Position numbers and translations under genes: made by a program. Below, one piece after another: positions 5,477 to 19,911 of a stretch of 64,000 nt of DNA. The notes under the pieces were generated by a model. The model saw only the letters and a program-made list of their open reading frames with translations. It was not told the origin of the DNA and ran no database searches. The first letter of the stretch is position 1; the number at the start of each line of letters is the position of its first letter. Source of the stretch: Candidatus Omnitrophota bacterium (GTDB lineage Bacteria; Omnitrophota; Gorgyraeia; Velamenicoccales; JABMQK01); the NCBI GenBank assembly GCA_028711115.1, contig JAQTSV010000001.1:1111005-1175004 (forward strand), in the 5' to 3' direction.

Positions 5477-6982
5477 TTATCCCTCGGAGAAAACAAAAGC
5501 CTGAAATGTATAAATCTGGGTTTTGGAATCTTTATAGGCGTCTGGCGCAAGGCCTGCCTTCTGCCAGCAAAGCTGACTTAGAAAAGTCTCCAGATCCCAC
5601 TTTGTCTCGGTGGCCACCTGGGGCAAGAAAACCCCGCTGGAAAAACCTCTTTTTACGATTACGCCGTCTGTGCCCAATCTAATCTTTCGCCAGTCGTCGA
5701 TTAATTGCGGTTCAGTCAATACAGAAATCTCAATCTTAATGTGGCTTAATTCATCTTTGGTCACAGGGCCAAACCGGGGATCGCCGGTAGCTGATTCTAT
5801 GGCCATCTGGGAAATAACCTTATAAATCGGCTCTCTCGACGTAAAAGTGCCGATACAACCCCTCAAATCCCCGTCTTTGTGCAGTGTGACGAATGCGCCC
5901 CGCTGTAAATTTAATTGCGGATCTTCTTCATTAAAACTCGGGGTTTTGCCTGTAACAACATATTCAGTTATGGTCTGGCGCGCAATTTCTAATAATCTTT
6001 TTTTCTGAGTTTCGTTAAACATCTGCTCTTCTCCTTTTGAAACCGGACTATTTTTGCCAGAGTTATTTTTATCTGCTTCGGATAAATCGCTGCTCTCTTT
6101 AAAAAATATGATGCTGGCGTAACCCACGACTCCTGATTTATCGCCCGTGACATCTCCTGAATTAGCGTAATCCAGGGCCTGCGCTTTCAGCCCTAATTCT
6201 TTAGCATAATTTAATAAAACCGAAACCGGTGCCAAACCGCATGCTTCGCATTCTCTTTTTAAATTTGACTGCCAGAACCCAAAGGCATCCAGATTTTTCA
6301 TATAAGAAATCGCCTTTGCGTCCATTTCCTGCGCCTCTGAATAAGGATGATAATGAGATAAATCCGTACTCGCCACGAGCAAAACCTTCTTACCTTTAGT
6401 TATATCGACGAGAATTCTGGCGACTTTGGCATAATCGCTGTAATCTAACTGACCAAAAACCATTGGCACAATTTTAAAGCCGGCTAATGATTTCTGCAAA
6501 AATGGTAATTCCACTTCTACGGCGTGTTCTCTTTCAAATGCCTCGGGTATAAATTTGATTTTATCGCTTGAAGAAATCAGCGCCTTGGTTAATTCGCTGT
6601 CAACTTCAACATCGCCTAAAGGCGTACGGAAAAATCCTTCATCATAAACAGAAATGCCTTTTAAGGCATAGAAATGCGACGGCGCAAGAATAATTACCGT
6701 ATCAAAACTTCTGCCTTTTATGGCGTCAAAACTGTAGGCGGCAACCTGGCCGGAATATGCGTATCCTGCGTGCGGGGAAATTACAGCAAGAATATCTTTG
6801 TCTTTTACATCTTGATTCTGCCTGACATTGGCAAAGAAATTGTCAATTTGGCTGGAGAGCACATCTTTATCGGCAGGATAAAATTGTCCGCTGACATTAG
6901 GATATTTTATCTTACCTTCGGCAAAAATAATACCGCAGAATAAAACAAAACAGATAAAACCCGATAAAAATATCTTCTTCAT
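5477..6982 (-). CDS. Fusion of a Memo-like protein (AmmeMemoRadiSam system protein B family) and an AMMECR1 domain (protein A family), with an N-terminal signal peptide.
   Basis: Signal-like N-terminus MKKIFLSGFICFVLFCGIIFA. Memo motif VISPHAGYAYSG. C-terminal AMMECR1 motif LRGCIGTF. Confidence 0.75.
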   Translation of the reverse strand: MKKIFLSGFICFVLFCGIIFAEGKIKYPNVSGQFYPADKDVLSSQIDNFFANVRQNQDVKDKDILAVISPHAGYAYSGQVAAYSFDAIKGRSFDTVIILAPSHFYALKGISVYDEGFFRTPLGDVEVDSELTKALISSSDKIKFIPEAFEREHAVEVELPFLQKSLAGFKIVPMVFGQLDYSDYAKVARILVDITKGKKVLLVASTDLSHYHPYSEAQEMDAKAISYMKNLDAFGFWQSNLKRECEACGLAPVSVLLNYAKELGLKAQALDYANSGDVTGDKSGVVGYASIIFFKESSDLSEADKNNSGKNSPVSKGEEQMFNETQKKRLLEIARQTITEYVVTGKTPSFNEEDPQLNLQRGAFVTLHKDGDLRGCIGTFTSREPIYKVISQMAIESATGDPRFGPVTKDELSHIKIEISVLTEPQLIDDWRKIRLGTDGVIVKRGFSSGVFLPQVATETKWDLETFLSQLCWQKAGLAPDAYKDSKTQIYTFQAFVFSEG

Positions 6983-8358: not shown

Positions 8359-8793
8359 TTAGGGGCAAGTGCCCGTACAGCTAGCACTAACGGCAGTATT
8401 AGTAATCTCCCAATAGCGATTATAGCCACCTCTATTTCTTGTAAGTCTCGCTGTAAAAGACGCTCCAGTAGTTGCACCTGTAATTGAATAAGTCCAGCTA
8501 TTATCGCTAACCAAATCCAATCTCAAATTAGTATTTATAGTATCGATTGCAGTAACAGCAGTTGTCGATTGGGGATAATATAAACCTGTCTCTAATCTAT
8601 AAGCCCGCTCAGCTGAACGGATAAGGCTGAGTATAGCCTGGGCCTGTTTGTCCATTGTTCTCTCTCGGGAGCGGACATATGTAGGCAAGGCAATACTTGC
8701 CAATATCCCCACAATAATCACTACCACTACTAATTCAATAAGCGTGACTGCGCGTCTTTTATCTTTATGAAACATATTTATTTTCTTGAACAT
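8359..8793 (-). CDS. Pilin-like protein (144 aa) with a C-terminal Cys pair; the small partner of cassette A.
   Basis: KRRA|VTLIELVVVVIIVGILA, a prepilin-like N-terminus with Ala rather than Gly at -1. C-terminal CTGTCP. Paralog of the ORF at 10094-10525. Confidence 0.7.
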   Translation of the reverse strand: MFKKINMFHKDKRRAVTLIELVVVVIIVGILASIALPTYVRSRERTMDKQAQAILSLIRSAERAYRLETGLYYPQSTTAVTAIDTINTNLRLDLVSDNSWTYSITGATTGASFTARLTRNRGGYNRYWEITNTAVSASCTGTCP

Positions 8794-8806: not shown

Positions 8807-10057
8807 CTACTTAGTTGTTTTTACGTCTGGTGGTGGATTTTTCCCGCCTCCCGGCTCTTTTCCGCCTGCCGAGCTACCTTTTAGTAATTCCCGTGGTTGC
8901 TTCAAATCATCTTGCAATCCCTTCATTAATTGTTCGAATCCTTGCTTTGGATCCATCTCTTGTTTACCTGATAGTATGTTATTTATTGTCTGTAAATCAC
9001 CTTGCAGAGTCTGTTGCATTGTTTTTATTTCATCTAAGGTCGTTCCGCTTTCTATTAACCCATCTAAAGTCACTACACCGCCTGCTGAACCACCTAATAC
9101 CATGTCTAGCGACTTTAGAAAATTTTGTATTTCCTGTGCCAAGTCCTGCAAAGCAACTACTTGGCCATCTGATACAGCCTTGTTATGCACAAGGATCCCC
9201 TCTGCAAAATAATTAGACGGTTTACCAACGCTCATGTTATAAACAAGGACTTTCTTCGGGATACTGACTTTGCTGGTTAAAGTTATCCAGCCGTCTAATG
9301 TAAAGAGTTTATCGCCGATATTCAAATCCTTGACTTTTATCCAGCCTCTTTGCGTATAGAAGGGGTGTTCTTGGGTGACATTGAGGGTTTTATTCAACGT
9401 ATAATATCCTTCGGCATCTTTGGAAAAGATCTTCTTAACGCTTACTTCTATTTTTTTCTTATTCTTTAGATCGTAACCCCATACCGTGTCTTTTGCTTTT
9501 AGTTTCGAGATAAGAATCTTTCCTTTTGGGGTATCAATCTTGGTGTTGCCTGTGAAACAGATAACGACACCACCAGTACCACCGCTGCCGCCGCTACCGC
9601 CACTTCCACCGCTACCACCTGAACCTAAGCTAGCCACCATAATCATACCTCCGGAAACTCCGGGTGGTATATTGCCTGCGCAGACCAACTCTCCGTTCTC
9701 TCTGATTCCAATAGTATATGCACCGCCAGACCTGACTGCCAGGGCGATAACTTCTGTATTGTCACCGTTGTTGGGTACGGGTGTGGTGGATACGGCAAAA
9801 TCAAAGAATCTGCCCTGGATGGGGATATTTGCATCAACCTGGGTTAAACAAGTAGAATAAATATCGTTCTCTAAGGCATAGCGCATCTCTGCTTCACGTA
9901 TAGCAGCTAACTTGTTTTTTGCCTCGGTTGTCCTTGATTTCTCCACCGCATTATTATATTTCGGCAAGGCCACAATAGTCAGAACACTGAGGATGATAAC
10001 AATGACTATCAATTCTATAAAAGTAAAACTTCTTTTGGGATTATTTCTTTTTGCCAT
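8807..10057 (-). CDS. Pilin-like fusion protein: prepilin-type N-terminal domain, a (GSG)n linker, a Hint (intein-like/BIL) domain and an ~120-aa Gln/Leu-rich C-terminal domain.
   Basis: The start is probably the second Met (MAKRNNPKRS|FTFIELIV), which has AAGGAGGA upstream; the track ORF begins 18 nt earlier. Hint blocks: CFTGNTKIDTPKG (A), TQEHPFYT (B), VLVYNMSV...SNYFAEGILVHN (F/G). Residue +1 after HN is Lys. Confidence 0.75.
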   Translation of the reverse strand: MAKRNNPKRSFTFIELIVIVIILSVLTIVALPKYNNAVEKSRTTEAKNKLAAIREAEMRYALENDIYSTCLTQVDANIPIQGRFFDFAVSTTPVPNNGDNTEVIALAVRSGGAYTIGIRENGELVCAGNIPPGVSGGMIMVASLGSGGSGGSGGSGGSGGTGGVVICFTGNTKIDTPKGKILISKLKAKDTVWGYDLKNKKKIEVSVKKIFSKDAEGYYTLNKTLNVTQEHPFYTQRGWIKVKDLNIGDKLFTLDGWITLTSKVSIPKKVLVYNMSVGKPSNYFAEGILVHNKAVSDGQVVALQDLAQEIQNFLKSLDMVLGGSAGGVVTLDGLIESGTTLDEIKTMQQTLQGDLQTINNILSGKQEMDPKQGFEQLMKGLQDDLKQPRELLKGSSAGGKEPGGGKNPPPDVKTTK

Positions 10058-10059
10058 AT
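9613..10059. repeat. Copy A of a ~447-bp near-identical direct repeat, covering the 5' part of the pilin-fusion gene including its start codon.
   Basis: Aligns base-for-base with 11161-11607 apart from ~4 substitutions (tagccacc/tggccacc, catacctcc/catgcctcc, cctgactgcc/cctggctgcc, ctggatgggg/ctgggtgggg). Confidence 0.85.
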
Positions 10060-10093
10060 GCCCATCCTCCTTCATTTATTCAAAAAACTAAAA

Positions 10094-10525
10094 TTAGGGA
10101 CAATTCCCAGCACAGGTAGCATTAATAGAGGTATCCGTAATACTCCAAGTACGGCTATAACCACCTTTGTCTCTTGTCCATGTAGCTTGAAAATGAAGGC
10201 TAGGCTGTCCTGAAGTACCTATACCCAAAATAGAATGAGTTGCCCAATTTCCATCATCAACCAAATCTAACCTTAGATTAGAATTTATGTTACTGAGGTA
10301 AGACTCCGTAGCCCCACCATTAGGATAATAGCCTCCCATTTCCGATTTATATACCCTTTCAGCTGCAAGGACAAAATTGAGTATAGCTATGGCCTGTTTA
10401 TCCATTGTCCTCTCTCGGGAACGCGTATATGTAGGCAAGGCAAGACCTGCTAATATTCCGACGACAACCACTACCACCACTAACTCAATAAGCGTTATTG
10501 CGTGCCTTCCATCTTTATAAAACAT
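10094..10525 (-). CDS. Pilin-like protein (143 aa); the small partner of cassette B.
   Basis: GRHA|ITLIELVVVVVVVGILAG prepilin-like N-terminus. C-terminal CAGNCP. Paralog of 8359-8793. Confidence 0.7.
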   Translation of the reverse strand: MFYKDGRHAITLIELVVVVVVVGILAGLALPTYTRSRERTMDKQAIAILNFVLAAERVYKSEMGGYYPNGGATESYLSNINSNLRLDLVDDGNWATHSILGIGTSGQPSLHFQATWTRDKGGYSRTWSITDTSINATCAGNCP

Positions 10526-10542: not shown

Positions 10543-11604
10543 TTACTTTTGTTCCTTTGGCGACTCGGGTGCTCCAGAGTCTTCAGGTTTTTCAGGATTC
10601 GAGTATCCCATTTTCTCTAAAAAATCTTCCCATTGCTTTTCTATCTCTTGATACTTTTTGTATAAATCATCTAAACAGCCCTGGTCCGAACAACCAAACA
10701 AAGTCTCTTTTATTTTTTCTAATTGATCTTGCAGTGTTTTTGCAATGCCTTCCGGATCTTCCCCCTTATAAAATTCCAGTTCGACATACATTTCATCTAA
10801 ATATTTTTGAAGTTCTTCGGGTTTGGTTGGTGGTTTCTCAGGCTGTTCAGTTTTTTCTTTGATCTTATCTAGTTGTTCTTGCAATTTTTCCACATCTTTT
10901 CCTTCATATTTTGACAACTCCATTTCGAATTGGTCTATTTTTGCTTGTACTTCTGATAAGCAAACCAAATCTCCTTTGCACTCATCAATCATTTTGCTTA
11001 TTTCATCTAATTGGCTCATCATCTTAACAAAAACATCATCCCATCCCATACTACCGCCGGTGCCACCGCTTCCACCACTGCCGCCACTGCCGCCGCTACC
11101 GCCACTGCCACCGCTGCCGCCGCTACCGCCGCTACCACCGCTACCACCACTGCCACCACTACCACCTGAACCTAAGCTGGCCACCATAATCATGCCTCCG
11201 GAAACTCCGGGTGGTATATTGCCTGCGCAGACCAACTCTCCGTTCTCTCTGATTCCAATAGTATATGCACCGCCAGACCTGGCTGCCAGGGCGATAACTT
11301 CTGTATTGTCACCGTTGTTGGGTACGGGTGTGGTGGATACGGCAAAATCAAAGAATCTGCCCTGGGTGGGGATATTTGCATCAACCTGGGTTAAACAAGT
11401 AGAATAAATATCGTTCTCTAAGGCATAGCGCATCTCTGCTTCACGTATAGCAGCTAACTTGTTTTTTGCCTCGGTTGTCCTTGATTTCTCCACCGCATTA
11501 TTATATTTCGGCAAGGCCACAATAGTCAGAACACTGAGGATGATAACAATGACTATCAATTCTATAAAAGTAAAACTTCTTTTGGGATTATTTCTTTTTG
11601 CCAT
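10543..11604 (-). CDS. Pilin-like fusion protein: the same N-terminal pilin domain as 8807-10057, a longer (GSG)n linker and an acidic coiled-coil-like C-terminal domain; no Hint domain.
   Basis: The first ~143 aa are almost identical to the cassette A fusion and are encoded by a near-identical ~447-bp DNA repeat. GGAGGAGGG lies upstream of the ATG. Confidence 0.7.
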   Translation of the reverse strand: MAKRNNPKRSFTFIELIVIVIILSVLTIVALPKYNNAVEKSRTTEAKNKLAAIREAEMRYALENDIYSTCLTQVDANIPTQGRFFDFAVSTTPVPNNGDNTEVIALAARSGGAYTIGIRENGELVCAGNIPPGVSGGMIMVASLGSGGSGGSGGSGGSGGSGGSGGSGGSGGSGGSGGSGGTGGSMGWDDVFVKMMSQLDEISKMIDECKGDLVCLSEVQAKIDQFEMELSKYEGKDVEKLQEQLDKIKEKTEQPEKPPTKPEELQKYLDEMYVELEFYKGEDPEGIAKTLQDQLEKIKETLFGCSDQGCLDDLYKKYQEIEKQWEDFLEKMGYSNPEKPEDSGAPESPKEQK

Positions 11605-11796: not shown

Positions 11797-12192
11797 TTAC
11801 TCAGGACAACTCGCAGTAGGAGTACAATTTAGAGTCCCATCTTCAGTGATGTACATTGTATAATTGGCATAAGTACCGCCTGCATCCACTGTATTTCTTT
11901 TTACCCAGGCAATGCTGTTGACAGAAGTGCCAACCGACGGCGTAGAGAAATACCTTGCAGTGGAAAACTCTGAGCCTGTATCCAGATTACCTAGCGTACT
12001 TGCATAGGAATTATACTGGGCGTAATACCTGACCTGAGCAGCACGTAAAGTACCCAGTATTGTTTTTCCCTCTGCCATTCTTGCTCTTTCGCTTACTTTT
12101 ATGTACCTAGGAAGAGCTACTGACGCCAATATACCAATTACGATGATAACAATGATTAACTCGAGCAGTGTAAAACCTTTCTTGCGGAACAT
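11797..12192 (-). CDS. Type IV major pilin / GspG-like pseudopilin (copy 1).
   Basis: MFRKKG|FTLLELIIVIIVIGILA, a canonical class III signal. C-terminal disulfide loop CTPTASCPE. Strong sigma70-like promoter and a 3' hairpin. Confidence 0.8.
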   Translation of the reverse strand: MFRKKGFTLLELIIVIIVIGILASVALPRYIKVSERARMAEGKTILGTLRAAQVRYYAQYNSYASTLGNLDTGSEFSTARYFSTPSVGTSVNSIAWVKRNTVDAGGTYANYTMYITEDGTLNCTPTASCPE

Positions 12193-12384: not shown

Positions 12385-12780
12385 TTACTCAGGACAACTC
12401 GCAGTAGGAGTACAATTTAGAGTCCCGGTCTCAGTGATGTACATTGTATAATTGGCATAAGTACCGCCTGCATCCACTGTATTTCTTTTTACCCAGGCAA
12501 TGCTGTTGACAGAAGTGCCGACTCCTGGCGTAGAGAAATACCTTGCAGTGGAAAACTCTGAGCCTGTATCCAGCTTATTTAGGTCAGTTGTATAGGAATT
12601 ATACTGGGCATAATACCTGACCTGAGCAGCACGTAAAGTACCCAGTATTGTTTTTCCCTCTGCCATTCTTGCTCTTTCGCTTACTTTTATGTACCTAGGA
12701 AGAGCTACTGACGCCAATATACCAATTACGATGATAACAATGATTAACTCGAGCAGTGTAAAACCTTTCTTGCGGAACAT
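12385..12780 (-). CDS. Type IV major pilin (copy 2), a near-identical tandem paralog of copy 1.
   Basis: Same sequence apart from a few substitutions (ASTLGNL vs TTDLNKL, SVGTSV vs GVGTSV, EDGTL vs ETGTL). The true start is probably the second Met (MFRKKGF), because AAGGGAGGGGAG directly precedes it. Confidence 0.8.
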   Translation of the reverse strand: MFRKKGFTLLELIIVIIVIGILASVALPRYIKVSERARMAEGKTILGTLRAAQVRYYAQYNSYTTDLNKLDTGSEFSTARYFSTPGVGTSVNSIAWVKRNTVDAGGTYANYTMYITETGTLNCTPTASCPE

Positions 12781-12894
12781 CTCCCCTCCCTTCATTTGTT
12801 CTATTGGTTTTTATTTTATTTTCTTACTTTCTAACTTAGATTCCTACTATAATTATAACATTTTATTTGCATTAAATCCATACTTTACAATAAG

Positions 12895-14148
12895 TTAACG
12901 ACCCGATGCAGTGGCTAAACTGAATATCGGTAAAAATATGGAAATGACCATACTCCCTATTATTACGCCCATAAACAAAATCATTACTGGTTCAAATATA
13001 GAAGTCAGCCTTGCTACAAAAGCACTCAAATAATCCTGGTAGTATTTTGCAATTCTCTTAAACATACCGGAAAGTTCTCCTATCTCCTCGCCAGTCGAAA
13101 TCATCTGTATTACCATGGGAGGGAAAAAACCTGTCTTTTCTAACGGTATGGAGAACGACTTTCCTTCACGTACATTAATTTTGATGTTGCCGATTATCTC
13201 CCGCATTATCTTATTTGGCTGGCTGCGTTCAGAAATATCCAAAGCATAAATAATAGGCACGCCACTTTCGATAAGAATAGACATCGTAGTGGAAAAACTT
13301 TCTATCATCATAAAACGGAAGAAATTACCAATAACCGGAAGGCCTATTTGAATCCTCTCTATATAACTCCGCGTGCTGTCTGTCTTCATTGAATTCCTGA
13401 TTAAAGAAACAATGCCTATAATAATCAGCACTATTAACAAAAATCTTTTTCTTAAGGTATTACTTATGGCAATGAGAATCTTGGTAGGCATAGGTAACTC
13501 CACATTCATAGAAGTAAGAATGCTGGTAAAGGTGGGGACTATTCTTATTACAAAGAACATCACTGCGCCAATCGCCACAACAAAAAGAATGCAGGGATAT
13601 ATTAACGCAGAAACGATCTTTGTTTTAAATGCCTGTCTGTCTTCTAAATAATCGGCCAGATGCCCCAAGACCATAGGTAAGTTACCGCTGGCTTCTCCGG
13701 TTTCTATCAAATAAAGCCAAAGTTCGGAAAATATGCTTTTATGTTTGGCCAAAGAATCACGGAAAGTCCGGCCTGATTCCATATCTTTTGTAATCTCGGT
13801 AACTGCACTATGCAATTTGTGCGACTCGATCTGTCTTCCGATAACATCCAGGGATTTCATTAAACTTACACCTGCGCCTAAAAGCATGGCTAGCTGACGT
13901 GCAAAAATAACCAGATCTCCGGAATTAGCACCTTCATGCTTAAAACTTTTGACCTTCCCTTTACCAAAAGCAAGACCTTTTTTCTTTTGTTCTTCTACAA
14001 CGAAGGATATATCGTATTGAACAATTGAAGTAATAACTAAACCTTTTCTCTGAAGGATAGCTACGGCTTCATCTTGGTTCGCAGCCTCTAAGAGACCGGT
14101 GTCTTTTATTCCTTCTTTTGTACGACCAATATAGGAAAATTTCGGCAT
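12895..14148 (-). CDS. pilC: Type IV pilus/T2SS platform protein, PilC/GspF family.
   Basis: 417 aa, two GspF repeats, three TM helices. Confidence 0.85.
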   Translation of the reverse strand: MPKFSYIGRTKEGIKDTGLLEAANQDEAVAILQRKGLVITSIVQYDISFVVEEQKKKGLAFGKGKVKSFKHEGANSGDLVIFARQLAMLLGAGVSLMKSLDVIGRQIESHKLHSAVTEITKDMESGRTFRDSLAKHKSIFSELWLYLIETGEASGNLPMVLGHLADYLEDRQAFKTKIVSALIYPCILFVVAIGAVMFFVIRIVPTFTSILTSMNVELPMPTKILIAISNTLRKRFLLIVLIIIGIVSLIRNSMKTDSTRSYIERIQIGLPVIGNFFRFMMIESFSTTMSILIESGVPIIYALDISERSQPNKIMREIIGNIKINVREGKSFSIPLEKTGFFPPMVIQMISTGEEIGELSGMFKRIAKYYQDYLSAFVARLTSIFEPVMILFMGVIIGSMVISIFLPIFSLATASGR

Positions 14149-14184
14149 GGCTATTTTTTATTTTAGTACATTTATAACACTATG

Positions 14185-15885
14185 TCAATCTACTAACGTA
14201 GCGCTTAGTGCTTCTTCTAAACTGGTTATGCCCTGTTTTACCGCAGATAATGCGCTTTCAGTTAAAGTCCGCATTCCGTTGTTACGGGCAATTTCTTTTA
14301 TTTTTTGAGAATTTGCCTTCTCTACAATTAAATCTCTTAGTGCATCGTTCAATAACATAACTTCTGCCACACATATCCTGCCTTTGTATCCGACGTGAGC
14401 ACATTTATCGCAGCCCTTGGCCTTATAGATTAAATCCTGGCCTAAATCTAACCTTTGTCTTTCTTCCTGGGAAGGCTCATATGGCTCTTTACAATCGGGG
14501 CATAATTTTCTAACCAATCTCTGGGCTACAATTAAAATTAAAGATGGCATTAAAAGATACGATTCAATACCTATATCAATAAGCCGGGTAATACATGATG
14601 GGGCATCATTTGTATGAAGCGTACTTAATACCAAGTGGCCAGTAAGGGCAGAACGTACACAAATCTGAGCGGTATCTAAATCTCGGACTTCTCCCACCAT
14701 CATTATATCCGGGTCCTGCCTTAAAAATGACCTCAAGGCAGAAGCAAATGTTAAGCCAATCTCTGGTTTAATCTGCACCTGGTTAATCCCTTCCAGACGG
14801 TATTCTACAGGATCCTCAACAGTCACTATGTTTTCTTTGGGAGACTTAAGTTCGTTTAATATCGCATACAAAGTAGTAGTCTTACCGCTGCCCGTAGGAC
14901 CGGTAAAAAAAATTAAGCCATAAGGACTGTGTATGCCTTTTCTTATATCCTCCAATTGCTTCTTGTCAAAACCGAGTACGGCCAAGTCTAATTTTGCCTT
15001 ATCTTTATCTAAAATTCTTAAAACAACTTTTTCGCCATAAATGGTGGGAATAACAGAAACACGAAAATCAATTGCGCGTTCCTCTAATTTTACAGAAAAT
15101 CCCCCGTCCTGAGGCAGGCGTTTTTCTGCTATGTCGAGCTTGGAAAGAATTTTTACGCGAGAGACTATGGGCAGATGCAGATGTTTTGCCGGCGGAGGTA
15201 TTTCATGCAAAACTCCGTCGATGCGGTACCTTAAGCTTATGCGGGCTTTAAAAGGTTCAATGTGTATATCGGAGGCCCGCTCATCTATCGCCTGCTTTAA
15301 AATAAGGTCCACTAATTTTACAACCGGCGCCTCTTCTGCACGGGCTATTAACCTATCAATGCTTAATTCTTCCTCGCTAGAAATCTCTTCCACCAAAGCA
15401 TCGCCGAGATAAGATTCTTTTACGGCCTGCTTTAACAAATCTCTCTTCCCATAGAATTGATCTATGGCCTTCTCGATGTCAGACTTGGTGGCTACAACCA
15501 AATTTACTTCACAGCCAGTCATCTTTCTTATGTTATCAATAAGAATTACATCCAGCGGATCATAGATTGCGCAGGTAATCGAACTCATGTTTCTTGACAG
15601 GGGAATTACTAGATTTTTTAGCGCGAACTCTTTGGGGATAAGTATATCGAGTTGGCTATCTATTTGAGGCTTTAGCAGATCAGAACCTAAAGACACATAG
15701 GGTATTTTCAGCTGTTTTCCTAAGGCCGCAACTATATCTTGTTCTGTAACAAAATTTAATTTAACAAGTATTTCACCTATGCGGCTGCCTTCTTTTTGCT
15801 GTGTCTTTATGGCCTTATCTAACTGCTCCTGTGTGATGACTCCTTCTTTAAGAAGAATCTCGCCCAGCCTAAGATATGTTGCCAT
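14185..15885 (-). CDS. pilB: Type IV pilus assembly ATPase, PilB/GspE family.
   Basis: N-terminal GSPII_E_N-like repeats, Walker A GPTGSGKTTT, tetracysteine motif CPDC...CDKC. Confidence 0.9.
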   Translation of the reverse strand: MATYLRLGEILLKEGVITQEQLDKAIKTQQKEGSRIGEILVKLNFVTEQDIVAALGKQLKIPYVSLGSDLLKPQIDSQLDILIPKEFALKNLVIPLSRNMSSITCAIYDPLDVILIDNIRKMTGCEVNLVVATKSDIEKAIDQFYGKRDLLKQAVKESYLGDALVEEISSEEELSIDRLIARAEEAPVVKLVDLILKQAIDERASDIHIEPFKARISLRYRIDGVLHEIPPPAKHLHLPIVSRVKILSKLDIAEKRLPQDGGFSVKLEERAIDFRVSVIPTIYGEKVVLRILDKDKAKLDLAVLGFDKKQLEDIRKGIHSPYGLIFFTGPTGSGKTTTLYAILNELKSPKENIVTVEDPVEYRLEGINQVQIKPEIGLTFASALRSFLRQDPDIMMVGEVRDLDTAQICVRSALTGHLVLSTLHTNDAPSCITRLIDIGIESYLLMPSLILIVAQRLVRKLCPDCKEPYEPSQEERQRLDLGQDLIYKAKGCDKCAHVGYKGRICVAEVMLLNDALRDLIVEKANSQKIKEIARNNGMRTLTESALSAVKQGITSLEEALSATLVD

Positions 15886-15886
15886 T

Positions 15887-17380
15887 TTATTTATTTTCCC
15901 AGATACTTAATGCCTTATCAATTTCTCCCTTGCGATATTGATAATCAGCTTGTTCTCTCTGTTCAAATATTTCCTTATTTAATGGTTCTTGTTTCGGAGA
16001 TTGAGACTTGGCTAAATCAATGCCCGGGGTCTTTAAAATCCTGGGGGTAATAAATACCAATAGCTCACGGTTTTTATCATCCCTGTCTTTGTGTCTGAAC
16101 ATAGCACCAGCAAAAGGAATATCCCCTAGAATCGGTACCTTTTTTCTCGTGTCGTTTAAGTCTTTTCTTAACAATCCTCCGATGACGACTGTTTCACCGT
16201 CCAAGACAGATATTGTAACTTTGGCGCTTCTTTCCTGAGGGTCAAAATAGCCGGTTAAATTGCTGTCCTCAACTGAAGAAATTGTAGGTTCTAACACCAT
16301 AGTAACTTCACCAGTCTCCGCATTTACGCTTGGCGTGACTTTAAGCGTAACGCCGACTTCGTATCTTTCGGCAGATGTACTCTGGGCATCACCTTGCTGA
16401 TCATAAGTAACGACTGTACCGACTGCGTCATTACCTGTAATCTTGATTTCTGCGGTTTCGTTGCTTAAAGTACGGATTCTCGGCCTGGCCAAAACTTTCG
16501 TGTTTTTATCTGTAATCAACAACTGTAGAGTTGCAGAAGATGAATCAGTGGGGACGCTAATAGAACCAGTAGTGATTTGCGTTTTAGCGATATCCCTGGC
16601 TACACTGCCGAAAGTATCAAAAGGAAAAGCCATACCTGTCCTGCCGGCAAGAGTCAGGGTATATAATGTACCGGACCACTCCATGCCTAATGTGTCCACT
16701 AATTGTTTTGTAGTATCAATTATTTCTGCCTCAATTACAACCTGGGGCACAGGTACGTCGAGTTTCTTAATCATTTCCTCAATACGTTCAAACCGCGAAG
16801 GCAAATCCGTAATAACTAAGCTGTTTGTCCGGGAATCTTCGCTTATTCTTCCTTCCCCGGAAATTAAATTCTGTAGAGCATCTGCCAAACTAGAGCCAGA
16901 TGTACTTGTCCCGGAAGCAGTATTTAAAGGAGACGAATTCACGCGAGCATATTTTAAGGTATATACCCTGGTAATTGTCTTTATGGGCTCTTCTTCCGGT
17001 GGCGGAGGCGGCTGTAGTTCCTTTACCACAAAGATATTGCTGCCTTCATCTAATTCATAAACTAAATTATATGAACTTAGAATCTTTTCCAGAGCGTCTC
17101 TTATAGGAACATTATCTAAATATAGCGTAATTGACTTATCAGCCACTTCTTGTGCCGCAATAAAATTCAAACCGGATTGCTGCGAGAATATTTTAAGTAC
17201 ATTGATGAGGCTGGCGCCCTCTAAATCCAGGGATATCTTTCGCCAAGATGCCTGCGTCAATAATTCCTCACTTAAACCTGCGAAGGTGGAATCAGGGAAA
17301 GAGAAAATCACAAGCAATAGGGAGAATACTAAAATAATAAATATCGAAAGAAATGATCTATTTGCCTTTTTGTTAAACAT
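15887..17380 (-). CDS. pilQ: Secretin, PilQ/GspD family.
   Basis: Signal peptide, N-domains, C-terminal secretin motif VVIGGLLRKD...VPILGDIPFAGAMF...LLVFITPRIL. Confidence 0.85.
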   Translation of the reverse strand: MFNKKANRSFLSIFIILVFSLLLVIFSFPDSTFAGLSEELLTQASWRKISLDLEGASLINVLKIFSQQSGLNFIAAQEVADKSITLYLDNVPIRDALEKILSSYNLVYELDEGSNIFVVKELQPPPPPEEEPIKTITRVYTLKYARVNSSPLNTASGTSTSGSSLADALQNLISGEGRISEDSRTNSLVITDLPSRFERIEEMIKKLDVPVPQVVIEAEIIDTTKQLVDTLGMEWSGTLYTLTLAGRTGMAFPFDTFGSVARDIAKTQITTGSISVPTDSSSATLQLLITDKNTKVLARPRIRTLSNETAEIKITGNDAVGTVVTYDQQGDAQSTSAERYEVGVTLKVTPSVNAETGEVTMVLEPTISSVEDSNLTGYFDPQERSAKVTISVLDGETVVIGGLLRKDLNDTRKKVPILGDIPFAGAMFRHKDRDDKNRELLVFITPRILKTPGIDLAKSQSPKQEPLNKEIFEQREQADYQYRKGEIDKALSIWENK

Positions 17381-17400
17381 CCTACACCCCCCTGTTTACA

Positions 17401-17805
17401 CTATTGATTATTTAGTTCTATTGTTCTTTTCAGAGCAATAGTATATTCCTTGTCATCAAAAACTAAAGTTATGCCTTCTTTTTCGATCTTGGTAATCTGG
17501 GCACCATCAAGCTTATCGCCTATGCCGTAAATCTTATTGTTAATTATCACTTTGGGTTTGTCGCTACCCCAGATTAGACCACTAAGTTTATAGCCTGAAG
17601 TATTGAATGTCACCTCTGGCTCAATGACAACGGGTTGTTCCACTACGGTTTCGACTTCTGGTTGAGGTTCAACTTTTACTTCCGGCAACCAATCCTTAAA
17701 AGGATTTTTCTTTTCCTCAGAAAATCCCATACTGAGAAAAACAAAATTCAGCAGAAGAACACCGATGAATACAATTACCTTATTTTTAAAAGTGCCTTTT
17801 AACAT
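17401..17805 (-). CDS. Small TM-anchored protein, PilP-like (pilus assembly/secretin-associated).
   Basis: N-terminal TM helix, Pro/Glu-rich linker, C-terminal beta-rich domain. Sits between the PilO-like gene and the secretin. Confidence 0.4.
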   Translation of the reverse strand: MLKGTFKNKVIVFIGVLLLNFVFLSMGFSEEKKNPFKDWLPEVKVEPQPEVETVVEQPVVIEPEVTFNTSGYKLSGLIWGSDKPKVIINNKIYGIGDKLDGAQITKIEKEGITLVFDDKEYTIALKRTIELNNQ

Positions 17806-17806
17806 T

Positions 17807-18334
17807 TTATTTTTTAGATATGAATGCCGTAATGCTTAAAAAAGCCTCGACCAGAGGACTCTCTGATTGTTCTAATTCAGGCGTAATTTGCAAACGTGTA
17901 ATCTTTGTCAATGTCTCCAGATTCTCAATCTCTGACAGAAACATCACTAAATCAGAATAATCTGCCCTGATATTCATGCTCATATCCAACGTAAAATAAT
18001 ATTGCTGATCTTGCAATCCGGATGGATCAAAGCTAGAAATATCGATATTATGTTTTGAAGCCAAATCGTTAATCTTGCCCATCACAGAAACTGTTTCCTT
18101 TGTCTGCCATCCTATATTTTTTAATTTATCGAATTCCTGGGATAATTTTTTTATTTTATTGGCTAATTCTATTTCCTGCTGATAAGTTTGAATCTTACCC
18201 CTTATGCTGCTTGACCTCATCTTTTGGTGATCCCAAATTTTTCTGCCTAAAAACAAGGTTATAAGAGCTACCACAATTATAAAAATCAGGTCTTTATTCT
18301 TTCTGAAATCAAATTTTTTAAAAAGTTCTGTCAT
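17807..18334 (-). CDS. PilO-like inner-membrane pilus assembly protein.
   Basis: Single N-terminal TM helix, coiled-coil segment; lies directly downstream of the PilM-PilN fusion. Confidence 0.5.
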   Translation of the reverse strand: MTELFKKFDFRKNKDLIFIIVVALITLFLGRKIWDHQKMRSSSIRGKIQTYQQEIELANKIKKLSQEFDKLKNIGWQTKETVSVMGKINDLASKHNIDISSFDPSGLQDQQYYFTLDMSMNIRADYSDLVMFLSEIENLETLTKITRLQITPELEQSESPLVEAFLSITAFISKK

Positions 18335-18336
18335 AT

Positions 18337-19911
18337 TTAACCCGCTATCTCAACATCGATTTCGAATCTGGTTACTTTATAGGTATTCATAATATCGCTT
18401 TTTAAAGACTTAACCGATATATTATTTACCTTATTAGAAAACAGAGGGCTGTTCTTCAGGTTAGAGATACAATTATAAGGTGCATCGACGGCTTCTTTTT
18501 CGTTCTCTCTGTAAACCAAGCCTTTCAAGTAAAGATACTTATTCGATCTATTAAAAGAAATCTCTTCAAGCCATACTCCTTCAGGCAGAAGATTAGGTAA
18601 AACCTCCAATTTTTCAGAAATAAGGATATCCTTTACGAAAAGCTTTTTATAAACCGCTAACTTATCGATAAGGTTATTATGTAAAACTTCCAAGGTTGCT
18701 GCATCCAAACCCTTGAGATCACTGCTTAACGCAGAATCTATTTCTTTAGAGACTGTCTCCAGCTGCCGACCGATTGGCTTTATGCTCAAGTCGGACAACA
18801 TAAATATACCCACCAATACTGCAGAAGCTATAGCCAGAGTCTTTATAATTTTAGCCTTGGGGATATCTAATATTTCACCCACTATGTCAGAAAGAATCTG
18901 AATATAGGAAGATAGAAAACCAAGGGCGAATTTCTGCTTCTTACCTAGATTAATAATAAGAGAAGACGGTTTATTTATACGTAATGATGCGCCTAATGCC
19001 TTTGCCAAATCCAGGCTATACTCTTCTTTGAACCCAAACATTTCATCTGTGTTCTTATATTGGACCGGCATTCCCAATTCTTTATTAAAGGCACTGACTA
19101 ATTCTTTTGATTCCTGCTTGGCCAAAACTACAATCCGGTCAACGCCCTTCTTCAAAAATTGTCTGCGGAAATAATCTATAGAAACCCTGACTTCGTTTAT
19201 TATACGGAAGGACACAGACTCCATATCCGCTTCCGCAGATTCAGGGCCACCAGCTATCTTTATATCCCTGGAAAAACAGGGTATACCATTGTCTACTATC
19301 GCGATAGTGCCTTCATCCCGCTCTAGCTCAATAACCACCACTGATTCTTTATTTGACATTATCTTTTTGACCTTAAGTAACCTAAAAAGAGAAAACTGTG
19401 ATGGTTCTATTGCCGCCACATTGAGCTTTAATTGGGTTAATATGGAATTGTATTTCTGGAGGTTATCATTTTTGATACCGGCAAAGAGCACCTCTATAAT
19501 ATTTTTCTGGGAGAATGTCTGGTAATCATAAGTAATTTCTTCCAGTTTAAAAGGTATGTATTTCTTTATCTCGAAACCAATACTGGCATCAATATCTTTT
19601 CTGGGAATCTGCGGAATCTCAAAAAACCTGACTATTAAATCCCGGTAAGGCACGCAAACAACAATTCCGGTATTCTCCAGATTGACCCTGGAATCGCGTA
19701 TCCTTCTCTGTAGAAACGCTACGATTTCTACTTCATTATCTAAGAATACGCTGAAAATATTATCCTTGGGAACTGTTACGCCCGAGGGCGCAGCAATGTC
19801 TTTAGGGTAAGGCGCATAGATATGGTTTTTTATCTTACCGGTACTAGCAGTCTCTACTATGCTTAAACCCTGAGAACCTAAAAATATGCCTACTGCATTC
19901 TTATCAAACAT
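18337..19911 (-). CDS. pilM: PilM-PilN fusion (actin-like ATPase domain plus TM segment and a PilN-like periplasmic domain).
   Basis: 524 aa. N-terminal PilM-like fold. Internal TM helix IIKTLAIASAVLVGIFML, then a PilN-like C-terminal region. Confidence 0.65.
   Translation of the reverse strand: MFDKNAVGIFLGSQGLSIVETASTGKIKNHIYAPYPKDIAAPSGVTVPKDNIFSVFLDNEVEIVAFLQRRIRDSRVNLENTGIVVCVPYRDLIVRFFEIPQIPRKDIDASIGFEIKKYIPFKLEEITYDYQTFSQKNIIEVLFAGIKNDNLQKYNSILTQLKLNVAAIEPSQFSLFRLLKVKKIMSNKESVVVIELERDEGTIAIVDNGIPCFSRDIKIAGGPESAEADMESVSFRIINEVRVSIDYFRRQFLKKGVDRIVVLAKQESKELVSAFNKELGMPVQYKNTDEMFGFKEEYSLDLAKALGASLRINKPSSLIINLGKKQKFALGFLSSYIQILSDIVGEILDIPKAKIIKTLAIASAVLVGIFMLSDLSIKPIGRQLETVSKEIDSALSSDLKGLDAATLEVLHNNLIDKLAVYKKLFVKDILISEKLEVLPNLLPEGVWLEEISFNRSNKYLYLKGLVYRENEKEAVDAPYNCISNLKNSPLFSNKVNNISVKSLKSDIMNTYKVTRFEIDVEIAG

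What the first reader, a model, noticed from the sequence alone, without database searches (positions are those of the whole stretch)
8807..10057. Type IV pilin-like protein carrying an intein-like Hint domain
This protein starts with a textbook prepilin N-terminus (KRS|FTFIELIVIVIIL, Glu at +5) and a ~140-aa pilin-like domain. A flexible GSGGSGG... linker follows. Next comes a ~126-aa segment (nt ~9182-9559) bearing all four diagnostic Hint/intein blocks: CFTGNTKIDTPKG (A), TQEHPFYT (B) and VLVYNMSV..SNYFAEGILVHN (F/G). A ~120-aa Gln/Leu-rich tail ends the protein. The residue after the terminal HN is Lys, not Cys/Ser/Thr, so canonical protein splicing is unlikely. The architecture instead matches bacterial intein-like (BIL) or Hedgehog-type Hint domains, which autoprocess by cleaving, releasing or thioester-activating a polypeptide. 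To my knowledge a Hint domain embedded in a pilin or pseudopilin has not been described. It could release the C-terminal domain from an assembled fibre, or create a reactive C-terminus for ligation.
Basis: partly seen in the sequence, partly recalled or inferred. Interest (0 to 1): 0.9.

Follow-up and report, generated by a model that had tools for sequence, protein, structure and literature searches.

The report
Self-cleaving Hint domain inside a pilin
A pilus-subunit gene of an uncultivated Omnitrophota bacterium carries a small intein-like self-processing (Hint/BIL) domain that was recently copied, with exact boundaries, between this gene and a giant surface-protein gene; the arrangement is rare and unstudied, but not unique.

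Summary
The ORF lies on the minus strand (8807-10057, 416 aa) and encodes a prepilin N-terminus, a small pilin head, a (GSG)n linker, a 126-aa Hint domain (Cys167...His-Asn292, then Lys293) and a 124-aa helical tail. The Hint passes Pfam PT-HINT (46.5 bits, cutoff 27.7) and aligns end to end with the solved BIL domain 2LWY. It folds at pLDDT 94-98, and its best structural matches are BIL domains. It meets every sequence criterion of an A-type bacterial intein-like domain and is not a canonical intein. The gene sits in a complete type IV filament operon of a Candidatus Omnitrophota genome.

New findings:
- The 381-nt Hint cassette is 375/381 identical to a copy in an unrelated 3,086-aa surface protein. 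Identity starts at the Cys1 codon and ends at Asn-Lys.
- None of 80 orthologous operons has a Hint, and none of the 39 with enough downstream sequence has an extended pilin.
- At least 16 other pilin-Hint fusions exist, from several independent acquisitions.
- One orthologue pair with and without the Hint shows it interrupting a conserved pilin-like protein.
- 79% of clade members have Lys at +1.

Best reading: a mobile, self-excising BIL element in a modular pilin. The fate of the flanks is untested.

The parts
8807..10057 (-). Pilin-linker-Hint-tail gene (416 aa plus TAG stop at 8807-8809). An alternative upstream ATG at 10075 would give 422 aa.
   Evidence: ORF. The 416-aa product is on record in NCBI GCA_028716625.1 and two other contigs. 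GGAGG lies 9 nt upstream of the ATG at 10057.
10028..10057 (-). Class III (prepilin) leader MAKRNNPKRS, with Ser rather than Gly at -1.
   Evidence: Sequence. N_methyl Pfam 20.0 bits, just under the 21.2 cutoff. Two other pilin-Hint proteins also have Ser at -1.
9626..10027 (-). Mature pilin module: FTFIE... alpha1 helix and small head, with Cys70 and Cys126.
   Evidence: N-terminal matches to PilA and GspG models. Up to 46% identity to 146-176-aa pilins. Alpha1 helix pLDDT 88-95, head only 37-57. Homologous to the ordinary 120-145-aa pilins of 80 orthologous operons.
9560..9625 (-). Flexible (GSG)n-TGGVVI linker, encoded by a 9-nt tandem repeat (5.7 copies at 9569-9619).
   Evidence: pLDDT below 50.
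9182..9559 (-). Hint (A-type BIL / PT-HINT) domain, Cys167 to Asn292. Cys1 codon 9557-9559, block B TQEH 9353-9376, block F 9227-9250, block G ...VHN 9182-9217.
   Evidence: Pfam PT-HINT 46.5 bits. 2LWY E 4.5e-6. pLDDT 94-98. Foldseek top hits are BIL2 and 2LWY.
9179..9559 (-). 381-nt mobile cassette (Cys1 codon to Lys+1 codon), 375/381 identical to L087:5767-6147 inside the gene for the 3,086-aa protein P0008.
   Evidence: Flanks match at 19/60 and 16/60, which is chance level.
8810..9181 (-). C-terminal tail (Lys293-Lys416): four predicted helices, then a Gly/Pro/Lys-rich end. No homologue found anywhere.
   Evidence: No Pfam hit. No hit among retrieved proteins or loci. Helices at pLDDT 67-89.
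10543..11604 (-). Hint-less paralogue (353 aa): same pilin module, longer (GSG)n linker (12.2 repeat copies at 11057-11166), and a different Glu/Lys-rich helical tail.
   Evidence: Tails only weakly similar (E 0.003).
8359..8793 (-). 144-aa pilin immediately downstream of the Hint gene. It is paralogous to 10094-10525, which lies downstream of the Hint-less paralogue.
   Evidence: N_methyl 28.7 bits. 78% nt identity over 206 nt to the other copy.
12895..19911 (-). Type IV filament machinery upstream in the same operon: PilM/N, PilO, a T2SSB-like protein, secretin, MshEN-type ATPase and GspF/PilC platform.
   Evidence: Pfam hits.

Best explanation
**What it is.** The segment is a catalytically intact A-type bacterial intein-like (BIL, Pfam PT-HINT) domain. 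It is carried on a discrete 381-nt cassette that was recently copied within this Omnitrophota lineage. The cassette sits between the flexible linker and the helical tail of a lineage-specific modular pilin in a type IV filament operon.

**Inferred mechanism.**
1. The precursor is inserted into the inner membrane by its class III signal, and the Hint domain folds on the periplasmic side.
2. Cys167 attacks the Ile166 carbonyl (N-S acyl shift) and forms a thioester.
3. Asn292, assisted by His291, cyclises and breaks the Asn292-Lys293 bond.
4. The 14-kDa Hint thereby removes itself.

**Fate of the flanks.** The two flanks are either ligated or separated.
- Ligation: an amine of Lys293 attacks the thioester (BIL-type splicing). 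This gives a 29-kDa pilin-linker-tail protein with the same layout as the Hint-less paralogue.
- Separation: a 16-kDa pilin-linker and a free 13-kDa tail.

I rate the two outcomes as about equally likely.

**Shown versus inferred.** Shown: domain identity, intact motifs, predicted fold, operon context, cassette copying, lineage specificity. Inferred: catalytic activity, cellular compartment, order of steps, ligation versus cleavage.
For: **Identity.**
- PT-HINT above the gathering score and intein C-terminal model above its cutoff.
- End-to-end alignment to BIL 2LWY, with TxxH and VYN..HN aligned.
- pLDDT 94-98.
- Foldseek top hits are BIL2 (6Y75, E 2.7e-11) and 2LWY (TM 0.85, rmsd 1.7 A), ahead of mini-inteins and Hedgehog.

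**Catalysis under selection.** Across 303 related Hint copies, Cys is first in 252 of 257 scorable copies and HN is last in 269 of 287.

**Mobile element.**
- 375/381 nt identity to the copy in P0008, bounded exactly by the Cys1 and Lys+1 codons, with unrelated flanks.
- No Hint in 80 orthologous operons, and no pilin longer than 230 aa in the 39 of them with at least 6 kb downstream.
- Tandem arrays of 2-5 Hints in relatives.
- The window Hint's nearest relatives are not pilin-borne, and pilin-borne Hints fall into at least 8 clusters.

**Excision restoring a functional host.**
- The Hint-less paralogue in the same operon has the same pilin-linker-tail layout.
- L003:13290-14513 (408 aa, with Hint) and L089:11265-12134 (290 aa, without) align on both sides of the Hint.

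**Precedent.** A-type BILs form the thioester, cyclise Asn and can ligate the flanks without a +1 nucleophile (PMC4031507).

**Pilus context.**. An independent pilin-Hint gene lies in another pilus operon.
Against: - There is no experimental evidence of any kind.
- Characterised A-type BILs give mostly cleavage, not splicing.
- Several pilin-Hint proteins end 1-5 residues after His-Asn, with a real stop codon in P0099. In those proteins ligation would be pointless.
- The residue before Cys1 is Ile here, whereas Gly is at -1 in 117 of the 257 scorable copies and Ile in only 5. The new site may process poorly.
- Ser at -1 of the prepilin site is atypical, and no prepilin peptidase gene is in the window. 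Processing and assembly into a filament are therefore assumed.
- The tail differs from that of the paralogue (E 0.003 only), so this is not a simple pair with and without the insert.
- No homing endonuclease or other transfer mechanism is visible.
- That P0008 is in the same genome is an inference. Each protein is carried by three contigs, two of them longer than 1 Mb.
Confidence: 0.65

Rival explanations
1. Dedicated release module. The Hint acts as PT-HINT does in polymorphic toxins: it cuts itself and the 13-kDa helical tail off the pilin. The pilus would then deliver or shed the tail as an effector, toxin or signal.
For: The best Pfam family is the pretoxin HINT. HINT is described as a releasing peptidase placed just before variable C-terminal domains, independent of the stalk that carries it (PMC3482391). 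A P. syringae CdiA BIL is reported to autocleave (PMC4725963). The two paralogues share a ~99% identical N-terminal module and have different C-termini, a polymorphic-toxin-like pattern. Cleavage dominates in characterised A-type BILs.
Against: The tail matches no toxin or any other Pfam family and has no homologue. The downstream gene is an ordinary pilin, not an immunity gene. The paralogue carries its tail without any Hint. Many pilin-Hint relatives have almost nothing after the Hint. The Hint is a recent cassette shared with a protein in which it sits mid-chain, about 2,000 residues from the C-terminus. Ten close Hint relatives show no toxin domains.
Confidence: 0.2
2. Ligation device. The thioester formed at the end of the Gly-rich linker is resolved by an external amine or hydroxyl, as in Hedgehog cholesterol transfer or BUBL ubiquitin-like conjugation. 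This would link the pilin C-terminus covalently to another pilin, to an envelope component or to a target-cell surface.
For: The top structural match is the Tetrahymena BUBL BIL2 domain, which forms a Lys isopeptide bond to the C-terminus of its N-terminal flank without ATP (PMC8616854). The flexible Gly-rich linker ends at the scissile bond, and Gly is the most common -1 residue in the clade. In pilin-Hint proteins with tails of 1-5 residues, only the N-terminal junction can matter.
Against: No acceptor is identified. The conserved His-Asn and +1 Lys point to an active C-terminal junction, which Hedgehog-type transfer does not need. The evidence for a mobile cassette does not require any host function. 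This copy has Ile, not Gly, at -1.
Confidence: 0.1
3. Inactive relic. The Hint no longer processes and stays in the protein as a bulky beta-rich module displayed on the pilus.
For: The atypical Ile at -1. No experimental data.
Against: All catalytic positions are intact: Cys1, Thr and His of block B, and His-Asn. The cassette is 98% identical to a second copy, so it is too young to have decayed. Catalytic residues are conserved throughout the clade.
Confidence: 0.04
4. Canonical mini-intein that splices by the class-1 mechanism.
For: Intein N- and C-terminal models and intein structures match the domain.
Against: The +1 residue is Lys, not Cys, Ser or Thr. Of 269 related copies ending in HN, only 13 have Cys, Ser or Thr at +1. 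The host is a variable secreted protein, not a conserved site of a housekeeping enzyme. BIL domains outrank inteins in both the sequence and the fold searches.
Confidence: 0.01

Closest known systems
A-type bacterial intein-like (BIL) domains (Amitai et al. 2003; Dassa et al. 2004; Clostridium thermocellum BIL, PDB 2LWY, Aranko et al. 2013)
   Same: About 130 aa with Cys1, block B TxxH and C-terminal His-Asn. No Cys, Ser or Thr at +1. Found in variable secreted or surface proteins. Best sequence match in the PDB and TM 0.85 in the fold search. The reaction scheme comes from PMC4031507.
   Different: The host is a type IV pilin. This clade has a strongly conserved Lys at +1 (79%), which none of the papers I read mentions for BILs. 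Activity is untested.
Pretoxin HINT (Pfam PF07591) of polymorphic toxin systems (Zhang et al. 2012, PMC3482391)
   Same: Best-scoring Pfam family, above its gathering score. The domain lies between a conserved N-terminal trafficking module and a variable C-terminus. NCBI names the sister copy in P0008 a 'polymorphic toxin-type HINT domain-containing protein'.
   Different: No toxin domain and no immunity gene. The carrier is a pilin, a trafficking mode not mentioned in the held text of that survey, which has 0 occurrences of pilin or pilus.
BIL2 of the Tetrahymena thermophila BUBL locus (PDB 6Y75, 6TMM)
   Same: Top Foldseek match (E 2.7e-11). The domain is flanked on its N side by a small domain ending in a flexible segment, and lysine is involved in resolving the thioester (PMC8616854).
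   Different: It is eukaryotic, its flanks are ubiquitin-like domains, and sequence identity is only about 23%. Whether Lys293 here plays the nucleophile role is pure conjecture.
Modular type IV pilins (Raynaud et al. 2021, PMC8179133; for example S. sanguinis PilB and PilC)
   Same: An N-terminal pilin module fused through a linker to an extra C-terminal module. The architecture IPR012902 - PF07591 is listed once in their Dataset S1.
   Different: The extra module here is a self-processing enzyme plus an orphan helical tail, not an adhesin or lectin. That architecture was listed but never discussed or tested.
Hedgehog/Hog C-terminal autoprocessing domains
   Same: Hint fold (1AT0 and 6TYY at E ~5e-6). 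Relatives in which the Hint is the last domain of the protein resemble the Hog layout.
   Different: Hedgehog lacks the terminal Asn reaction and uses a sterol-recognition region. This domain keeps His-Asn and has a 124-aa tail.

Membership tests
Hint superfamily / Pfam PT-HINT (PF07591) | Profile score above the curated gathering threshold | tested here: met
   46.5 bits against 27.7, E 5.7e-12, profile positions 3-136 of 137.
Hint superfamily / Pfam PT-HINT (PF07591) | Hint (horseshoe, all-beta) fold | tested here: met
   The AF2 model has pLDDT 94-98 over residues ~165-292. Foldseek gives probability 1.00 to BIL, intein and Hedgehog structures. This is a prediction, not an experimental structure.
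A-type BIL domain | N-terminal Cys (or Ser) nucleophile and block B Thr-x-x-His | tested here: met
   Cys167 and T228-Q-E-H231, aligned to the equivalent positions of 2LWY.
A-type BIL domain | C-terminal His-Asn | tested here: met
   His291-Asn292. TIGR01443 scores above its cutoff.
A-type BIL domain | No Cys, Ser or Thr nucleophile at +1 | tested here: met
   Lys293. Lys is at +1 in 212 of 269 related copies.
A-type BIL domain | Resides in variable regions of secreted or surface proteins | tested here: met
   The hosts are a pilin and a 3,086-aa repeat surface protein. The extension is absent from orthologues.
A-type BIL domain | Autocatalytic cleavage or splicing activity | not testable with these tools
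   Needs protein expression and mass spectrometry.
Canonical (class 1) intein | Cys, Ser or Thr at +1 of the C-extein | tested here: not met
   Lys293.
Canonical (class 1) intein | Insertion in a conserved site of a conserved host protein, often with a homing endonuclease | tested here: not met
   The host region is lineage-specific. The domain is 126 aa, which leaves no room for an endonuclease.
Type IV pilin (class III signal peptide protein) | Short basic leader, hydrophobic alpha1 helix, Glu at +5 | tested here: met
   MAKRNNPKRS followed by FTFIELIVIVIIL. Helix 13-63 at pLDDT 88-95. N-terminal matches to PilA and GspG models.
Type IV pilin (class III signal peptide protein) | Gly (sometimes Ala) at -1 of the prepilin peptidase site; N_methyl profile above threshold | tested here: not met
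   Ser is at -1. PF07963 scores 20.0 bits against 21.2. Two other pilin-Hint proteins also have Ser at -1, and other pilins of this operon have Gly or Ala.
Type IV pilin (class III signal peptide protein) | Encoded with type IV filament machinery and homologous to bona fide pilins | tested here: met
   The operon has PilM/N, PilO, secretin, ATPase and platform genes. The pilin module is homologous to the 120-145-aa pilins of 80 orthologous operons.
Type IV pilin (class III signal peptide protein) | Cleavage by prepilin peptidase and incorporation into a filament | not testable with these tools
   No Peptidase_A24 gene was found among the window ORFs scanned.
Polymorphic toxin system | C-terminal toxin domain | tested here: not met
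   The tail has no Pfam hit at E<=0.1 and no homologue.
Polymorphic toxin system | Cognate immunity gene immediately downstream | tested here: not met
   The downstream gene, 8359-8793, is a pilin with the N_methyl motif.
Polymorphic toxin system | Conserved N-terminal module with variable C-termini | tested here: met
   Two paralogues are ~99% identical over the pilin module and differ after the linker.

The most novel reading that the evidence does not exclude
The 'Cys1...His-Asn-Lys' Hint clade would be a distinct class of mobile, endonuclease-free intein-like elements. It would be specialised for extracytoplasmic proteins of ultrasmall, host-associated prokaryotes (Omnitrophota, CPR bacteria, DPANN archaea). 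The conserved +1 lysine would be the ligating nucleophile, giving lysine-dependent (possibly isopeptide) protein splicing. On pilins, the same chemistry could be used to attach the pilin C-terminus covalently to other proteins, without energy input, at the cell surface.
Probability: 0.12. Interest if true: 0.85.

Novelty: new variant of a known kind. Interest (0 to 1): 0.58.

Why it matters
**BIL biology.** The biological role of BIL domains has been open since they were described in 2003. This locus offers an unusually clean case:
- a very recent copy event with codon-exact boundaries;
- a Hint-less paralogue in the same operon;
- an orthologue pair with and without the Hint in another lineage;
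- a small soluble construct that could be tested in a week.

**Pilus biology.** The locus adds a self-processing enzyme to the list of modules grafted onto pilins. It also raises the question of how a pilus machine handles a subunit that changes its covalent structure after export.

**Protein engineering.** If the conserved +1 Lys proves to be mechanistically important, that would also interest people who build protein-ligation tools.

**If it is only a selfish element.** It would still document that intein-like elements colonise surface-protein genes in Omnitrophota, CPR and DPANN genomes.

Tried and rejected
- **First word-index search, whole protein.** Only 6 Hint-only hits; the GSG linker probably swamped candidate selection. 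Searching the Hint+tail alone gave 1 hit. The exhaustive HMMER search and a profile of fusions were needed.
- **Scans with the target protein.** Neither genome contigs nor metagenome contigs returned a relative.
- **Exact look-up of the 422-aa form.** Failed; the 416-aa form succeeded.
- **Single-sequence AlphaFold.** Useless, at pLDDT 39.
- **AlphaFold-database fold library.** Unavailable, so I could not look for UniProt entries with the whole layout.
- **Tail.** No Pfam family. Similarity to the paralogue's tail is marginal (E 0.003), so homology is undecided.
- **Foreign origin by composition.** Rejected: the cassette's GC is 0.38-0.41, like its surroundings.
- **Phage or plasmid vector.** Only 1 and 4 weak hits, at about 30-41% identity.
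- **Assembly artefact for the duplicated cassette.** Rejected, because both host proteins are intact and each is carried by three contigs.
- **Polymorphic-toxin reading.** Rejected as primary, for lack of toxin and immunity components.
- **Canonical intein reading.** Rejected on the +1 residue.
Full report
**1. The observation**

The region holds one intact ORF on the minus strand: 8807..10075, 422 aa. The plus strand is full of stops.
- GGAGG lies 9 nt upstream.
- The near-perfect DNA identity to a paralogue starts exactly at this ATG.
- The 416-aa product is on record in three public assemblies, whereas the 422-aa product is not.

In the 416-aa numbering the layout is:

| Residues | Feature |
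|---|---|
| 1-10 | leader |
| 11-144 | pilin module |
| 145-166 | (GSG)n-TGGVVI linker |
| 167-292 | Hint (Cys167 ... His291-Asn292) |
| 293 | Lys at +1 |
| 293-416 | tail |

**2. What the Hint segment is**

Profile and sequence searches:
- Pfam PT-HINT scores 46.5 bits (E 5.7e-12) against a gathering score of 27.7, covering almost the whole profile.
- Intein_splicing, Hint_2 and Vint score just below their cutoffs.
- The NCBIfam intein C-terminal model is above its cutoff.
- Among solved structures, the best sequence match is the Clostridium thermocellum bacterial intein-like domain 2LWY. It aligns end to end, with block B (TFDHPFY against TQEHPFY) and VYN...VHN in register.

Structure prediction:
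- A single-sequence AlphaFold run was uninformative.
- With a 48-row alignment, the Hint region reaches pLDDT 94-98 as an all-beta domain.
- Foldseek ranks BIL2 of the Tetrahymena BUBL locus first (6Y75, E 2.7e-11) and 2LWY close behind (TM 0.85, rmsd 1.7 A). Mini-inteins, Hedgehog and Vint follow.

The domain has Cys1, Thr-x-x-His, His-Asn and a non-nucleophilic +1 residue. It therefore meets every sequence criterion of an A-type BIL as summarised in PMC4031507, and it fails the +1 criterion of a canonical intein.

**3. The pilin part and the operon**

The N-terminus has a basic leader, Phe at +1, Glu at +5 and a long hydrophobic helix, predicted at pLDDT 88-95. It gives N-terminal matches to PilA, GspG and ComGC models. 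The N_methyl Pfam score (20.0) is just under threshold (21.2), and the -1 residue is Ser rather than Gly. The head is modelled poorly, but it is up to 46% identical to 146-176-aa pilins.

The gene lies in a co-directional operon. In order, the operon encodes:
- a PilM/N fusion, PilO, a T2SSB-like protein, a secretin, an MshEN-type ATPase and a GspF platform;
- eight pilin genes: two near-identical 131/136-aa pilins, a 353-aa pilin, a 143-aa pilin, the target, a 144-aa pilin, and minor pilins of 148 and 194 aa.

No prepilin peptidase gene was found among the ORFs scanned; the rest of the window is mostly a surface-glycan biosynthesis cluster.

**4. Source organism**

The ATPase is up to 78% identical to those of Candidatus Omnitrophota MAGs. 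The exact 416-aa protein is in NCBI assembly GCA_028716625.1.

**5. The extension is lineage-specific**

I retrieved 80 orthologous Omnitrophota operons. None has a Hint domain within 10 kb of the ATPase. In the 39 loci with at least 6 kb downstream, all pilins are ordinary: 2-4 of about 120-145 aa, then about 110 and 180-225 aa. The linker+tail of the 353-aa paralogue and the linker+Hint+tail of the target are therefore recent add-ons to an ordinary pilin.

[quoted passage not shown] They then differ in two ways:
- The number of 9-nt GSG repeats is 5.7 against 12.2 copies.
- Everything downstream differs. The tails are only marginally similar (E 0.003) and match no family.

**6. The Hint is a recently copied cassette**

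The exhaustive HMMER search gave 22,068 hits. The top hit, P0008, is a 3,086-aa repeat protein that NCBI names a polymorphic toxin-type HINT domain-containing protein, from Candidatus Omnitrophota. Its Hint domain differs from the window's at 2 residues.

At the DNA level:
- 375 of 381 nt are identical, and the first 334 are perfect.
- Identity starts at the TGT of Cys1 and ends in the Lys+1 codon.
- The 60-nt flanks match at 19/60 and 16/60, which is chance.

The P0008 gene lies between a secretin gene and another MshEN-type ATPase gene on a 1.55-Mb contig of GCA_028714715.1. Each of the two proteins is carried by three contigs, two of them longer than 1 Mb. I infer, but did not prove, that both copies are in the same genomes. 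This also argues against an assembly artefact.

The cassette's GC content matches its surroundings. Phage and plasmid collections give only weak hits.

**7. Pilin-Hint fusions elsewhere**

- Six of the best 150 representatives have a prepilin N-terminus plus a Hint. A profile search raised the total to 16 genuine fusions, one of them NCBI MBM3251820.1 from Candidatus Omnitrophota.
- They carry one or two Hints after a Gly-rich linker, with tails of 1-88 residues. P0099 ends HNKPM with a real stop codon.
- P0158, 27% identical to the target, lies in another pilus operon, with MshEN-ATPase, GspF, pilins and PilM.
- P0152, P0170 and P0172 lie in clusters of minor-pilin-like genes.
- Their Hint domains fall into at least 8 clusters at 50% identity, and the window's Hint groups with non-pilin Hints. 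The fusion has therefore arisen several times.
- Named close relatives of the Hint come from Komeilibacteria, Falkowbacteria and Micrarchaeota. Partner domains are varied and include no recognised toxin.

**8. A natural pair with and without the Hint**

L003:13290-14513 (408 aa) and L089:11265-12134 (290 aa) are orthologues. They align both before and after the Hint of the former. There, the Hint interrupts a conserved pilin-like protein, as an intein would.

**9. Clade signature**

Of 303 Hint copies in the retrieved set:
- Cys is first in 252 of 257 scorable copies.
- His-Asn is last in 269 of 287.
- The +1 residue is Lys in 212 of 269 and Cys, Ser or Thr in only 13.
- The -1 residue is Gly in 117 of 257 and Ile, as in the target, in only 5.

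The nucleotide identity between the two copies runs into the Lys codon, so Lys may belong to the mobile unit. The top structural match, BUBL BIL2, resolves its thioester with a lysine to form an isopeptide (PMC8616854). Whether Lys293 does anything similar is conjecture.

**10. Interpretation**

The best-supported reading is a mobile, self-excising A-type BIL element that has landed in a modular pilin.
- Shown: identity, intact motifs, predicted fold, context, cassette copying, lineage specificity, recurrence.
- Inferred: that it is active, that it acts after export, and what becomes of the flanks.

Two lines favour ligation that restores a pilin-linker-tail protein: the Hint-less paralogue has that layout, and the orthologue pair with and without the Hint shows conserved sequence on both sides. 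Two lines favour cleavage: characterised A-type BILs mostly cleave, and short-tailed relatives have nothing to ligate. I leave this at about even odds.

It lacks a toxin, an immunity gene and any conserved cargo. External ligation is possible at about 0.1.

**11. Novelty**

The searchable literature has nothing on pilin-Hint proteins. The polymorphic-toxin survey never mentions pilins in its held text. Raynaud et al. 2021 list the architecture once in a supplementary table, without comment.

The domain is a member of a known family, while the host context and the Lys-conserving clade are new variants. Interest is moderate to good: a clean, testable case bearing on the unresolved role of BIL domains and on pilus modularity, but not a new kind of system.

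Noticed in passing
L087:3001-12261 (NCBI GCA_028714715.1, JAQTLW010000001.1): A 3,086-aa repeat-rich surface protein (P0008) carries the sister Hint cassette mid-chain. It is encoded between a TPR-STN-secretin gene and an MshEN-type ATPase gene, so a second type IV filament-like locus has a Hint-bearing giant protein.
   Followed up: partly
Proteins P0009-P0012 and others: Many close Hint relatives carry 2-5 Hint domains back to back with almost no spacer, some followed by a Tim44-like domain. One of them is from a Micrarchaeota archaeon. No explanation for such arrays.
   Followed up: partly
303 Hint copies in retrieved proteins: Lys follows the terminal His-Asn in 79% of copies, and Gly is the commonest residue before Cys1 (117 of 257 scorable copies). 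The conserved +1 Lys is unexplained.
   Followed up: partly
L003:10001-14513: One minor-pilin cluster has two separate pilin-Hint genes (372 and 408 aa) flanking a 710-aa GspK-like ORF. The orthologous cluster in L089 has a Hint in only the first gene.
   Followed up: yes
window 11797-12192 and 12385-12795 (-): Two tandem, 94% identical copies of a 131-aa pilin lie directly after the platform gene. They are probably the major pilin, duplicated.
   Followed up: no
window 9569-9619 and 11057-11166: The linkers are 9-nt tandem repeats with different copy numbers (5.7 and 12.2). Together with the ~99% identical 5' modules, they would be good substrates for recombination and linker-length variation. 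The antisense ORFs at 9486-9860 and 10823-11407 (+) are by-products of these repeats.
   Followed up: partly
window 10028-10030 (Ser codon at -1 of the prepilin site): Ser replaces the near-universal Gly before the mature Phe. P0158 and P0159 share this, and two other pilins of the operon have Ala. No prepilin peptidase gene is in the window.
   Followed up: partly
window 14185-15885 (-); L001:3144-5562: The pilus ATPase has an MshEN N-terminal domain (Pfam). From general knowledge, not checked here, MshEN is a c-di-GMP-binding module. In the unrelated pilin-Hint operon L001 the ATPase is preceded by two PilZ proteins, three response regulators and a histidine kinase.
   Followed up: no
window 29509-63255 (-): A long co-directional cluster for surface-glycan synthesis: heptosyltransferase, NeuB, a cytidylyltransferase, several radical-SAM/B12 and SPASM enzymes, a carbamoyltransferase, family-2 glycosyltransferases and a PMT-like transferase.
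   Followed up: no
window 5477-6982 (-): A single 501-aa protein fuses the Memo-like and AMMECR1 domains.
   Followed up: no
L090:9607-14145: Next to the pilin-Hint-Hint gene P0021 lies a 1,512-aa Peptidase_S8 protein whose N-terminal region contains '...GGGGGGVIC'. A phmmer search with the window Hint printed no match in it.
   Followed up: partly
L088:3001-4251: The public record of the 416-aa protein has no precomputed Pfam hit, although PT-HINT scores well above threshold when scanned directly. Fusions of this kind may be under-counted in precomputed annotation.
   Followed up: no
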